Assembly (NCBI GenBank): GCA_951406725.2
Contig: OX597833.1
Location: forward strand, 29,202,001-29,266,000
Direction of reading: 5' to 3'
Source: Octopus vulgaris
Taxonomy: Eukaryota
DNA: 64,000 bases
Below, piece by piece: positions 49,823 to 62,952 of this stretch. The position numbers and the translations under genes were made by a program. The notes under the pieces are model-generated. The model was not told the DNA's origin and did not search any database. It worked only from the letters and a program-made list of their open reading frames with translations. Every line of letters begins with the position of its first letter. The first letter of the stretch is position 1.

Positions 49823-50940
49823 TTATATATTTATATATGTGTGCATATATGTGTGTGTGTGTATATATATATATATATATATATGTATGTGTGTGTATAT
49901 ATATATATACGTATATATGTGTGTGTGTGTGTGTGTGTGTGTGTGTGTGTATATATATATATATATATATATATATGTGTATATATATATATGTGTATAT
50001 ATATATATGTGTATATATATATACTGTATGTGTATATATATATATGTGTATATATATATATATATATATATATATATATGTATATATATATATATGTATA
50101 TATATATATGTATATATATGTATATATATATATGTGTATATATATATATATGTATATATATGTATATATATATGTGTATATATATATATATATATATATA
50201 TATATATATGTATATATATATATATATATATATATATATATATATATATGTATATATATGTATATATATATATGTATATATATATGTATATATATGTATA
50301 TATATATGTATATATATATGTATATATATATATATATATGTATATATATATATATATATATATATATATATGTATATATATATATATATATATATATATA
50401 TATATATATATATATATATATATATATATATATATATATATATATATATGTATATATATGTATATATATATATATATATATATATATATGTATATATATA
50501 TATATATATATATATGTATATATATATGTATATATATATATATATATATATGTATATATATATATATGTATATATATATATGTATATATATATGTATATA
50601 TATATATGTATATATATATGTATATATATATATATATGTATATATATATATATATATATATATATATATATATATATATATATATGTATATATATATGTA
50701 TATATATATATGTATATATATATATGTATATATATATATATATATATATATATATATATATGTATATATATATGTATATATATATATATATATATATATA
50801 TATATATATATATATGTTATATATATATATGTATATATATATATATATATATATATATATATATATGTATATATATATATATATATATATGTATATATAT
50901 ATATATATATATATATATATATATATATATATGTGTATAT
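49823..50940. repeat. ~1.1-kb (TA)n/(TATG) microsatellite
   Basis: Direct observation. Confidence 0.95.
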
Positions 50941-53680
50941 GTAGTTGTGTGTGCTACATATCGCCCTCCAGATGCCCCAAGCCATGTGGGCAAGTTTGAA
51001 GACTTCCTTATAAAAATAGAAGAAATTCTAACCACATTAGAACAACACATAGGTGTGCTTCTTATGGGAGACTTCAATCTGCCCAATGTCAGATGGCCCG
51101 AGGGCCTTTCTCTCCCAGGAATGACAAGATGTGAACGAGGACAGGCGGGGTCCCTCCTGAACCTCATCAACACCCTGTACATGGAGCAGGTAATACTCCA
51201 ACCAACCAGGGCAGGTAACACACTGGATCTCTGCTTCACAAATGACATGGATCTCATCCATAATGTGAAAGTGACACCGACACTACTCTCGGATCACAAC
51301 ATGATAGAGCTGACCATGTACGGGCCAAAAGAGAGCACGGACATGCAGCCTACAAGAAACCCTCAAAATCTTTCCAGCTTGAACTACCATAAGGCAAACT
51401 GGAAACAAATTGAAAAGAGATCCTCAAACAAAACTGGCCTAAATGTCTCTCCTCGCCAGACATCGACGTGAAACTTCAACAATTCATGTCTGTAATGCAA
51501 GCCATATGCTACAAATGTGTCCCAGAGAGAAAGGCCACTGTACACAAGAACAAAATCCCCAGAGAGAGGAAAATTTTAATGAGACGGCGTACGAAATTTT
51601 CAAATCGCCTAAACAAACAGATTGAAAGCAGTGAAAAGTCCCGCCTAAAAATAAAACTGTTGGAAATCGAAAAATGTCTGCAACTCTCCCATGAAAAAGA
51701 AAGAGCAGACAAAGAAGCCTGGGCTATAGAAAACATAAAATCTAACCCCAGAGCTTTCTACAGGTATGCCAAAGAAACAGCTACGGTGCACTGTAGAATA
51801 GGGCCACTCCTCGAAAAGGATGGCACACTCACAGGAAAACCAATGAGGGTAAGTGAAATACTGAATGAGCAATTCAAGAGTGTTTTCACTCCACCCCTTG
51901 GGCATCTCCAAATCACTAATCCAACTGACTTTTTTACCACTGCAGATATAAAATCAGAGGAGGCGACGATAGATTACATCGATATAAAGGAAGACGATGT
52001 AATCTAGGCTATAGATGAAATGAAAACAGACTCAGCTACTGGCCCCGATGGATTCCCGGCAATCCTCCTAAAAGCATGTAAGAGAGTCCTAGCAAGACCA
52101 CTGCAGTTCCTCTTTCAGAGCTTCCTTGCAGCTGGCAAACTTCCAAGAAAACTGAAGGAAGGTAAAATATGCCCCATTCATAAAGGAGGTAGCAGAGCGG
52201 AAGCCAAGAACTATAGACCTATCTCTCTGACCTCACACATCAGCAAGGTCATGGGACGAATAGTCAGAAGGAAGCTGATCACCTTCCTTGAAGAGAATGA
52301 CTTGCTGCCCGACACCCAACATGGTTTCCGACCAGGGAGAAGCTGTTTAACTCAGCTCCTACAACACTATGACTGGGTGCTGAAACGGCTGCTCAACCAC
52401 TCAAATGTGGAAGTGATACATCTCGACTTTGCAAAGGCCTTTGATAAAGTCGATCATGGAATGATATGTCACAAACTGCGTGATCTCAACATAGTTGGAA
52501 AACTGGGAGAATGGCTTCATGACTTTCTGAAGGATAGAAGTCAGGTGGTAGTAGCCAATGGGGCCACCTCCATTAACACACAAATAGTGAGCGGTGTTCC
52601 GCAGGGCACTGTTCTGGGACCACTACTGTTCATAATGGCCCTCTCAGACATGCCCTCAGCCATGCAGAGAGCCACGATCACAAGTTATGCAGATGATACA
52701 AAAGTTTCACAGGCAATACAGAACCCTGAGGACACTAAACACCTGCAATGTGAGCTGGACGAAATATACAAGTGGGCTGAAAAGAATAGCATGCAGTTCA
52801 ATGCTGGAAAGTTTCAAGCTTTATACTATCAGCATGCAAAACTGAATGCAATACCCAATGAATACACTGGACCCGGAGGGATTGCAATCCCAGAGGCACA
52901 ATCAGTGCGTGACCTGGGTATTCACATGAGTGATGACGCGACCTTTCATGTACATGTTGCTAAACTGACAATGAAATGTAGACGGCTGGCTGGATGGATT
53001 CTTAGAACCTTTAGAACAAGAGAACAAGAAACCATGATGGTCCTCTGGAAGACACTTGTCCTAAGCCACTTTGACTATTGCTCTCAGCTATGGTCACCAT
53101 CCAGTGTCAAGTTGATCACAGAACTTGAGGCGATCCAACGAAGCTACACGAAGAAGATAGCCTCTATGCAGAATGTAAGCTACTGGGAAAGACTCAAGAG
53201 ATTAAAATTATATTCCCTGGAGTGTAGGCGGGAAAGATATGCCATAATATACATCTGGAAGATCCTGGAGGGAAGTGTCCTTAACTTTGACATTGAGAGT
53301 TACGCAAATGCCAGAACTGGGCGCCACTGCGTGGTGCCTAGGACTCCAAACCTGCCATCAAGATGTAGGACAAGATTCTGTGATAGCCTGGGCTTCCGAG
53401 GCCCACAGCTCTTCAATATCCTCCCGAAGAACCTGAGAGACCTGCATGGGGTGGATACAGATGTCTTTAAATGAAGCTGGATCTCTTCCTGTCAGGTGTC
53501 CCAGATGAACCAACTTCACGGCAGGAGGGGCAGATGAGGGCAGCTGCATCGAACTCTCTCATGCACCAAATAGCAGTTGCTAGAAAGCCCCGATGAAGTA
53601 AAACCAAGTAGCAACACCAAATGGCGGTGCCCCAGCATGGCCACAGCTCATAAGCTGAAACTAGAATCAATCAATCAATC
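50941..53680 (+). mobile_element. CR1-group LINE A, 5'-truncated in the APE domain, inserted in (TA)n
   Basis: [72 protein letters not shown]; one stop (52005-52007) and two frameshifts; (ATCA)n tail. Confidence 0.92.
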
Positions 53681-62634: not shown

Positions 62635-62952
62635 TATATATATATATATATGTATATATATATATATATATATATATATATATATATATATATATATATA
62701 TATATATATATGTATATATATGTATATATATATATATGTATATATATATATATGTATATATATATATATATATATGTATATATATATATGTATATATATG
62801 TATATATATATATATGTATATATATATATATATATATATATATGTATATATGTGTATATATATATATGTATATATATATATATATATATATATATATATA
62901 TATATATATATATATATATATATATATATATATATATGTATATGTATATATA
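62635..62952. repeat. (TA)n microsatellite
   Basis: Direct observation. Confidence 0.95.

What the first reader, a model, noticed from the sequence alone, without database searches (positions are those of the whole stretch)
49823..62952. Three different young CR1-group LINE families all sit in (TA)n: candidate microsatellite-targeting lineage
Seen: LINE A (50941-53680,+), B (54241-56734,+) and C (59868-62634,-) have clearly different nucleotide sequences and different 3' tails (ATCA, TATCAAAG, AGTAAAAG). Every 3' end, and the 5' ends of A and C, join (TA)n directly. I saw no ORF-bearing copy elsewhere in the window. Their ORFs are nearly intact (C has no stop in 888 aa, B has one). Known: microsatellite targeting is described mainly for some R1- and Tx1-clade elements, while CR1-group elements are usually regarded as non-specific. 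Inference: this lineage uses (TA)n as a safe-harbour target, and insertion may in turn help expand the arrays.
Basis: partly seen in the sequence, partly recalled or inferred. Interest (0 to 1): 0.8.

Follow-up and report, generated by a model that had tools for sequence, protein, structure and literature searches.

The report
Octopod CR1 LINEs nesting in TA-repeats
Three different young CR1-type jumping genes sit end-to-end inside long TATATA repeats in what is likely an octopus genome, which likely means they prefer TA repeats as landing sites, a habit known from other retrotransposon groups but not found in our searches for CR1; the genome-wide test could not be run.

Summary
Observation confirmed, with one correction. 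A (50941-53682,+), B (54241-56734,+) and C (59868-62634,-) are 5'-truncated APE+RT LINEs from two deep sublineages of one invertebrate CR1-like clade (A/C 70% aa, B 42%); the nearest named relative is from Argonauta, so the host is likely an octopod. All 3 tails and both native 5' ends join (TA)n. B's 5' end instead joins a missed 211-nt inverted duplicate of A's 3' end whose TA flank mirrors A's: a fold-back, not a fourth insertion. TA on both sides of A and C, family-specific tails and array polarity argue for a pre-existing target, not an encoded tail. Contigs of two public runs show an A-family tail-to-TA junction shared by at least ~13 and ~100 copies. But n is 3 in one cluster, no genome was held, RTE-type tails also hit TA (2 of 11), a relative (L001) is not in TA, and raw reads were uninformative. 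Best reading: a real TA preference (endonuclease nick plus tail-TA priming), strength unknown (0.62). Microsatellite-targeting LINEs are known (R1, Tx1, R4); a CR1/(TA)n case was not found in 10 searches. New variant of a known kind; interest 0.45.

The parts
49823..50940 (.). (TA)n array with TG variants on + strand; 5' flank of A
50941..53682 (+). LINE A: 5'-truncated inside the APE domain, RT, 3' hairpins, (AATC)n tail; two frameshifts, one stop; 86-89% aa to full-length P0002
53683..54031 (.). (TA)n array that is its own mirror image (landmark GTGAGT at 53767, ACTCAC at 53958; G variants left, C variants right)
54033..54243 (-). A': inverted duplicate of A's last 211 nt (99%), joined head-to-head to B; likely a fold-back product
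54241..56734 (+). LINE B: APE C-terminal remnant, RT, one stop, (TATCAAAG)2 tail; 5' end is the A' junction
56735..58945 (.). 2.2-kb (TA)n array; 3' flank of B
58946..59215 (-). short retroposon with (ATG)n tail that shares its 3' part with the RTE-like LINE at ~22-25.6 kb; its tail also abuts the TA array
   Evidence: RTE label recalled
59496..59867 (.). (TA)n array; 3' flank of C
59868..62634 (-). LINE C: 5'-truncated in the APE domain, 897-aa open frame (APE part + RT), 3' hairpins, (AGTAAAAG)-type tail
62635..62953 (.). (TA)n array; 5' flank of C
62955..63335 (+). 381-bp repeat with TC...CTAG ends (Helitron-like, label recalled) between two TA arrays; a 91% copy at 8598-8969 is not in an array

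Best explanation
A, B and C are three separate 5'-truncated CR1-type LINE copies with (TA)n at every native end, and they likely landed in a pre-existing TA array because these families likely prefer (TA)n as a target. Shown: the anatomy, TA at both ends of A and C, family-specific tails, a shared 3' motif (CATGGCC, hairpin, GAAAC), multi-copy tail-to-TA junctions for the A family in two runs. Inferred: ORF2p binds the 3' hairpin of its RNA, the APE domain nicks TA-rich DNA, and the nicked ...TATA-3' end primes on the 1-3 matching letters at the end of the tail (B: ...AAAG|TAT continues its unit; C: ...AGAG|TA likewise); 5' ends are joined by short overlaps with the array. Since (TA)n is self-complementary, both orientations occur and each insertion leaves target on both sides, giving a chain of intact elements linked by TA. 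The A' piece and B's 5' end were likely made later by a fold-back at the hairpin-prone array (or by an assembly artefact). How strict the preference is (long arrays versus any TATA) is unknown.
For: 3 of 3 tails and 2 of 2 native 5' ends on TA; arrays are 9.8% of host DNA in the window, 0.8% in its first 49.8 kb. No element interrupts another across ~14 kb. Both flanks of A (+) and of C (-) carry G variants on the + strand, so polarity follows the chromosome and not the element. RTE-type (ATG)n tails in the same window abut pure TA in 2 of 11 cases; 3/3 versus 2/11 gives p=0.027, post hoc. In Logan contigs of runs X1 and X7 (two species labels), 10 and 12 contigs align across the A-tail/TA junction with summed depth 14,722 and 70,737, against single-copy contig depths of about 50-110 and 43-60: by my arithmetic at least ~13 and ~100 copies share one such junction; 120 and 141 contigs run past the TA-ended edges. 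3' overlaps of one to several bases between CR1/L2/RTE tails and target are described (PMC6007223, passages).
Against: Only three independent events, in one cluster, chosen after the fact. No genome, so no flank table. One search gives no fraction: unique-flank contigs may be too short to be laid; in X7 71 contigs leave B at 56705 with a median of 52 loose letters of which only 30 (a variant hairpin and tail) are shown; raw runs X21/X22 laid only 3 and 14 reads, 5 of the 14 run on unlike the stretch and only 1 passes an edge. It says nothing on 5' ends. Other element types also abut TA here (2-3 of 11 RTE-type tails, an RTE-like 5' end at 5209, 1 of 2 Helitron-like copies). 84% of TATA 4-mers in the window's host DNA are in arrays, so a weak TATA taste would do. 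Clade member L001 ends in non-array DNA. The old CR1 relic at 30042-30324 has no TA array beside it, though its ends are eroded. The APE alignment shows no distinctive insertion against bird CR1 in the PTR...LDL loop.
Confidence: 0.62

Rival explanations
1. Capture at fragile arrays: long (TA)n breaks by itself (hairpin or cruciform), and any active retroelement primes at or is patched into the break; the bias belongs to the host DNA, not to the CR1 endonuclease.
For: A fold-back inversion is centred in the array next to A. Unrelated element types also abut these arrays. B and A/C are only 42% alike yet behave alike. The same idea was proposed for florendoviruses, which lack an integrase and are often TA-flanked (PMC4241990, abstract and passages).
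Against: All three have complete 3' tails, as expected of normal target-primed insertion. RTE-type tails are mostly (8-9 of 11) not in TA.
Confidence: 0.15
2. Local pile-up without family-wide specificity: the elements have at most a weak TA/TATA taste, cephalopod genomes are very rich in (AT)n, and this 14-kb nest is a tolerated hot spot that caught the reader's eye.
For: Over 10% of the Doryteuthis genome is (AT)n (PMC9068888, passage). 38% of TA and 84% of TATA words in the window's host DNA are in arrays. L001 inserted at a non-array site that starts with TA. Passive accumulation near CA repeats is the reading given for Drosophila Waldo-A/B (PMC3812793, passage).
Against: No CR1 lands inside another element although elements make up about 8 of the 14 kb; high-depth tail-to-TA contigs in two other genomes.
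Confidence: 0.18
3. The TA is element-made: an encoded or RT-added (TA)n tail, or read-through flank, seeds and expands the arrays, as CR1-L3 seeds microsatellites in snakes.
For: All 3' ends are on TA and speaks only to 3' ends. CR1-driven microsatellite seeding is described in snakes (PMC8303610, passages). A and A' share flank landmarks, which a read-through master could also give.
Against: TA at the truncated 5' ends of A and C, where no upstream element's tail lies (A is first in the chain; C's 5' array is followed by a non-LINE repeat). Each family has its own non-TA tail. Variant polarity does not follow element orientation.
Confidence: 0.05

Closest known systems
Microsatellite-specific non-LTR elements: Waldo (ACAY) and Mino (AC) of clade R1, Kibi (TC) and Koshi (TTC) of clade Tx1, Dong (TAA)
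   Same: LINEs inserted into a pre-existing simple repeat, with the repeat on both sides (list in PMC3812793, passage; R1 and Tx1 named as the target-specific APE clades in PMC4640811, passages).
   Different: None listed is CR1-group and none targets (TA)n; here the RT groups with CR1-type sequences and specificity is not shown genome-wide or biochemically. Clade labels of Kibi/Koshi (Tx1) and Dong (R4) are recalled.
Invertebrate CR1-group LINEs, including the young CR1 families of Octopus vulgaris (13 recently active families, 787 near-full-length copies, 62 Mb in all)
   Same: APE+RT ORF2, 5' truncation, 3' hairpin and short tandem tail; young copies in octopods (PMC13282606, parts 1-2 of 3 of the text and a supplement search).
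   Different: That paper says nothing, in what I read, of insertion sites; whether A, B, C are among its families could not be checked (library on Zenodo).
SaTar MULEs (guayule, rice), MuTAnT, Micron: TA-targeting DNA transposons of plants
   Same: Same architecture: chains of unrelated, uninterrupted elements linked by (TA)n, with occasional fusions that delete the linking repeat (PMC5907723, abstract and passages; MuTAnT PMC4486113 listing only).
   Different: DNA transposons in plants, different chemistry.
Endogenous florendoviruses
   Same: Frequently TA-flanked, arrays pre-exist (PMC4241990).
   Different: No integrase; captured in break repair. It is the model for rival 1.
Snake CR1-L3 microsatellite seeding
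   Same: CR1 next to microsatellites (PMC8303610, passages).
   Different: There the repeat grows from the element's tail; here it is also at truncated 5' ends and differs from the tails.

Membership tests
CR1 group LINE | ORF2 with N-terminal APE endonuclease followed by RT | tested here: met
   Exo_endo_phos_2 + RVT_1 in C and A; RVT_1 in B, whose N-part aligns to the APE C-terminus; all three lack APE motifs I-II through truncation
CR1 group LINE | 3' end with hairpin and short tandem-repeat tail, 5' truncation | tested here: met
   Shared CATGGCC-hairpin-GAAAC then tail (fold z -2.7, -2.9, -1.5); start at aa 147, 221, 133 of the 1033-aa P0002
CR1 group LINE | RT phylogeny inside CR1 rather than L2/Crack/Daphne/Kiri/Rex1 | tested here: inconclusive
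   FastTree on 135 RTs: A, B, C in one clade (0.999), joined with the group holding six bird proteins at 0.935. Bird = CR1 is my recall; no labelled L2, Zenon, Crack, R1 or Tx1 reference was available
CR1 group LINE | ORF1 type | not testable with these tools
   All copies truncated; clade member L001 has a 532-codon ORF1 with Cys/His patterns read by eye as PHD- and CCCH-like
Zenon (CR1-Zenon) | poly-A tail (PMC13343379, section 15) | tested here: not met
   Tails are 4-8-nt repeats
Vertebrate canonical CR1 | membership of the vertebrate CR1 clade | tested here: not met
   Bird proteins form a separate long-branch clade; 34-37% identity to B
Microsatellite-specific LINE (works-like Waldo/Mino/Kibi/Koshi) | same simple repeat at both junctions of a copy | tested here: met
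   A and C, 2 of 2 copies with native 5' ends
Microsatellite-specific LINE (works-like Waldo/Mino/Kibi/Koshi) | most genomic copies lie in that repeat | tested here: inconclusive
   3 of 3 locally; multi-copy junctions for A in two runs but no fraction; raw reads too few; no genome
Microsatellite-specific LINE (works-like Waldo/Mino/Kibi/Koshi) | endonuclease cleaves the repeat specifically | not testable with these tools
   Needs a nicking assay; alignment shows no special loop
R1 or Tx1 clade | RT phylogeny in R1 or Tx1 | not tested
   No references available; not filed there

The most novel reading that the evidence does not exclude
Octopods carry at least two deeply split CR1 sublineages that are dedicated (TA)n-targeting retrotransposons, a third origin of microsatellite specificity among APE-type LINEs besides R1 and Tx1, and their insertion plus fold-back at the arrays builds TA-linked element chains that help explain the (AT)n excess of cephalopod genomes.
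Probability: 0.3. Interest if true: 0.65.

Novelty: new variant of a known kind. Interest (0 to 1): 0.45.

Why it matters
Target specificity among APE-type LINEs is credited to the R1 and Tx1 clades (PMC4640811). A CR1 lineage that homes to (TA)n would be a further origin, with near-intact young copies that make it testable, and would tie LINE activity to the very large (AT)n content of cephalopod genomes. It would also mean that short-read assemblies, which break at TA, undercount these insertions. If it is instead capture at fragile TA arrays, it is an animal parallel to the florendovirus pattern. If only a local pile-up, it is ordinary.

Tried and rejected
Whole genome: none held. Read-laying (stretch 54018-56748, 4 of 24 listed runs): X21/X22 share X1's species label but laid only 3 and 14 reads from 1,934 Mb each, so they gave no flank table; the contig runs show only the top 12 of 1,118 loose-end groups. 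Metagenome loci (80 of 486 relatives, from 1/64 of the collection): only L001-L003 fall in the clade; L002 and L003 lack a 3' end, L001 is not in TA; 5 of the 83 loci (the scan also covered no others then) have any (TA)5, one (L012) about 145 nt after the ORF match, none in the clade. Viral contigs: 3 weak loci, 0 matches to a 3' motif. Prokaryote genomes: 26 matches, all limited to 20-30 nt, i.e. chance. Earlier findings: none. IQ-TREE run did not finish; FastTree used (30 of 120 hits, 28 top hits plus 6 bird hits, and loci covering >270 aa of the RT query). Rejected: A' as a fourth independent insertion, because its flank mirrors A's. Rejected: Zenon (no poly-A). No structure or complex jobs: a fold cannot show DNA specificity. 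Literature: searches found no CR1/(TA)n report; Repbase Reports, Dfam entries and most subscription papers (Kojima and Fujiwara 2004, Ichiyanagi and Okada 2008, Kapitonov and Jurka 2003) are outside the library, so a database note may already exist. Also read in passages without bearing on targeting: PMC10294476, PMC3124438, PMC5786205, PMC4120745, PMC13708176.

Full report
What is there. Between 49.8 and 64 kb the window is a chain of (TA)n arrays (49862-50940, 53683-54031, 56735-58945, 59496-59867, 62635-62953, 63336 to the end) separated by mobile elements. Three are LINEs: A (50941-53682,+), B (54241-56734,+), C (59868-62634,-). C is one open frame of 897 aa with an APE part and RT. B has one stop; A has two frameshifts in A-runs and one stop. 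All are 5'-truncated in the endonuclease: they start at residues 147, 221 and 133 of the full-length 1033-aa homologue P0002, so none can be autonomous. A and C are 68% alike in DNA and 70% in the RT region; B is 42% to either.

Host and clade. The best named homologue of C is from Argonauta hians (55%), so the host is likely an octopod; nine coded organism labels hold 74-86% of the sampled words of the A'/B stretch. In an RT tree A, C, three unnamed proteins and the Argonauta protein form a clade (0.999); B sits in a sister subclade with unnamed sequences up to 54% alike; both belong to one clade (0.999) apart from six bird proteins that I take, from recall, as canonical CR1. No labelled L2, Zenon, Crack, R1 or Tx1 references were available, so 'invertebrate CR1-type' is likely but not formally shown. 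Short tandem tails exclude Zenon, which has poly-A (PMC13343379, section 15). The three share a 3' motif, CATGGCC-hairpin-GAAAC, just before the tail; the non-cephalopod-looking clade member L001 has a similar end with a (TATGGCAAAG) tail.

Junctions. All three tails run straight into TA, and so do the truncated 5' ends of A and C. At B and C the first target letters continue the tail unit (TAT, TA), the kind of 1-3 base overlap described for CR1, L2 and RTE (PMC6007223, passages). At A's 5' end the expected codons (N-V-V in P0002) would overlap the array's common ATGTA variant; this is inferred from protein only. Target-site duplications cannot be seen in such a repeat.

B's 5' end joins a 211-nt inverted copy of A's 3' end (arms 53470-53680 and 54033-54243, 99%). 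The array between them is a mirror: both sides read C(AT)8G, a TA run, TGTGAGT, (TA)3TG; G variants switch to C variants mid-array. A and A' also share a letter at 54123 where 96-97% of family depth in X1 and X7 differs. So A' is a fold-back duplicate of A, made by hairpin-primed copying at the array and joined into B, or an assembly artefact; it is not a fourth insertion. Independent events: three; native 5' ends: two.

Is it more than chance? Arrays are 9.8% of non-element DNA in the window and 0.8% of its first 49.8 kb; 3 of 3 at random is about 1e-3, but the cluster was chosen after the fact. As an internal control, of 15 (CAT)n runs, 11 are tails of an RTE-type retroposon family (4 dropped as not followed by the family sequence); 2 of 11 abut pure TA and a third a TACA/TA stretch; 3/3 versus 2/11 gives p=0.027. 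So other elements are enriched at TA too, but less. A weak motif taste could explain much: 38% of TA and 84% of TATA words in host DNA lie in arrays, and (AT)n exceeds 10% of a squid genome (PMC9068888, passage).

Target or tail? TA at the truncated 5' ends, family-specific non-TA tails, and array polarity that follows the chromosome (G variants on + on both sides of A, which is +, and of C, which is -) favour a pre-existing array. Polarity could also come from strand-biased mutation, so it is supporting only.

Other genomes. One read-laying run covered A' and B with 14 TA bases each side. Contigs of X1 and X7 (18,397 and 13,473 laid) include 10 and 12 that align across the A-tail/TA junction with a one-base gap, at summed depth 14,722 and 70,737, while single-copy contigs have about 50-110 and 43-60: at least ~13 and ~100 copies share such a junction (my arithmetic; that a gap implies alignment into the TA is inferred). 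This gives presence, not fraction, and nothing on 5' ends. Against or unclear: 71 X7 contigs leave B at 56705 with 52 loose letters, only 30 shown; raw runs X21 and X22 laid 3 and 14 reads, with 5 of the 14 running on unlike the stretch and 1 passing an edge. L001, the one clade relative with a readable flank, is followed by non-array DNA, so the habit is not shown to be clade-wide.

Mechanism. Most likely (0.62): target-primed reverse transcription with a TA-preferring APE nick and priming by tail-TA pairing; the self-complementary target allows both orientations and regenerates target on both sides, producing uninterrupted chains like the SaTar arrays of plants (PMC5907723, abstract and passages). 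Rivals: local pile-up with weak preference (0.18); capture at self-breaking arrays as proposed for florendoviruses (0.15; PMC4241990), favoured by the fold-back and by B and A/C behaving alike despite 42% identity; element-made TA (0.05). The APE alignment shows intact late catalytic motifs and no special loop.

Novelty. Listed microsatellite-targeting LINEs are Waldo, Mino, Kibi, Koshi and Dong, none CR1 and none on (TA)n (PMC3812793, passage); R1 and Tx1 are named as the specific APE clades (PMC4640811, passages). The 2026 O. vulgaris repeat paper counts 13 recently active CR1 families and, in the two thirds of the text and the supplement search I saw, gives no insertion sites (PMC13282606). 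Ten searches found no CR1/(TA)n report, but Repbase, Dfam and most subscription papers are not covered. Verdict: real local pattern, likely a real preference, unproven genome-wide; new variant of a known kind; interest 0.45.

Noticed in passing
window 53470-54243: A ~770-bp palindrome (A 3' end + TA array + inverted copy) fused to B: a fold-back inversion centred in (TA)n, real or assembly artefact.
   Followed up: yes
window 50941 and 62634: A and C are truncated within 43 aligned bases of each other in the APE domain; could be a shared RT pause or chance.
   Followed up: no
window 56735-57250: B's 3' array switches between C-variant and G-variant blocks twice in its first 500 bp, hinting at further small inversions inside the array.
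   Followed up: no
runs X21, X22: Same species label as X1, yet almost no reads of families that X1 holds in many copies; unexplained (label, filter or different organism).
   Followed up: no
window 22235-25580 and 4585-5233: RTE-like LINE remnants (label recalled) with a Cys/His insert scoring as PHD (E 2.5e-5, just over the cut-off) inside the RT region; the 5' end of the second abuts a TA-rich array at 5220.
   Followed up: no
window 62955-63335, 8598-8969, 45940-46170: Helitron-like short repeat (TC...CTAG ends), one copy between TA arrays, others not.
   Followed up: partly
window 49000-49620: Decayed coding remnant that reads like a GIY-YIG (Penelope-type) domain by eye, followed by (CTT)n and the first TA array; not tested.
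   Followed up: no
L001 958-5528: Full-length two-ORF member of the same clade with PHD-like and CCCH-like ORF1 and the same style of 3' end; a useful outgroup for target tests.
   Followed up: partly
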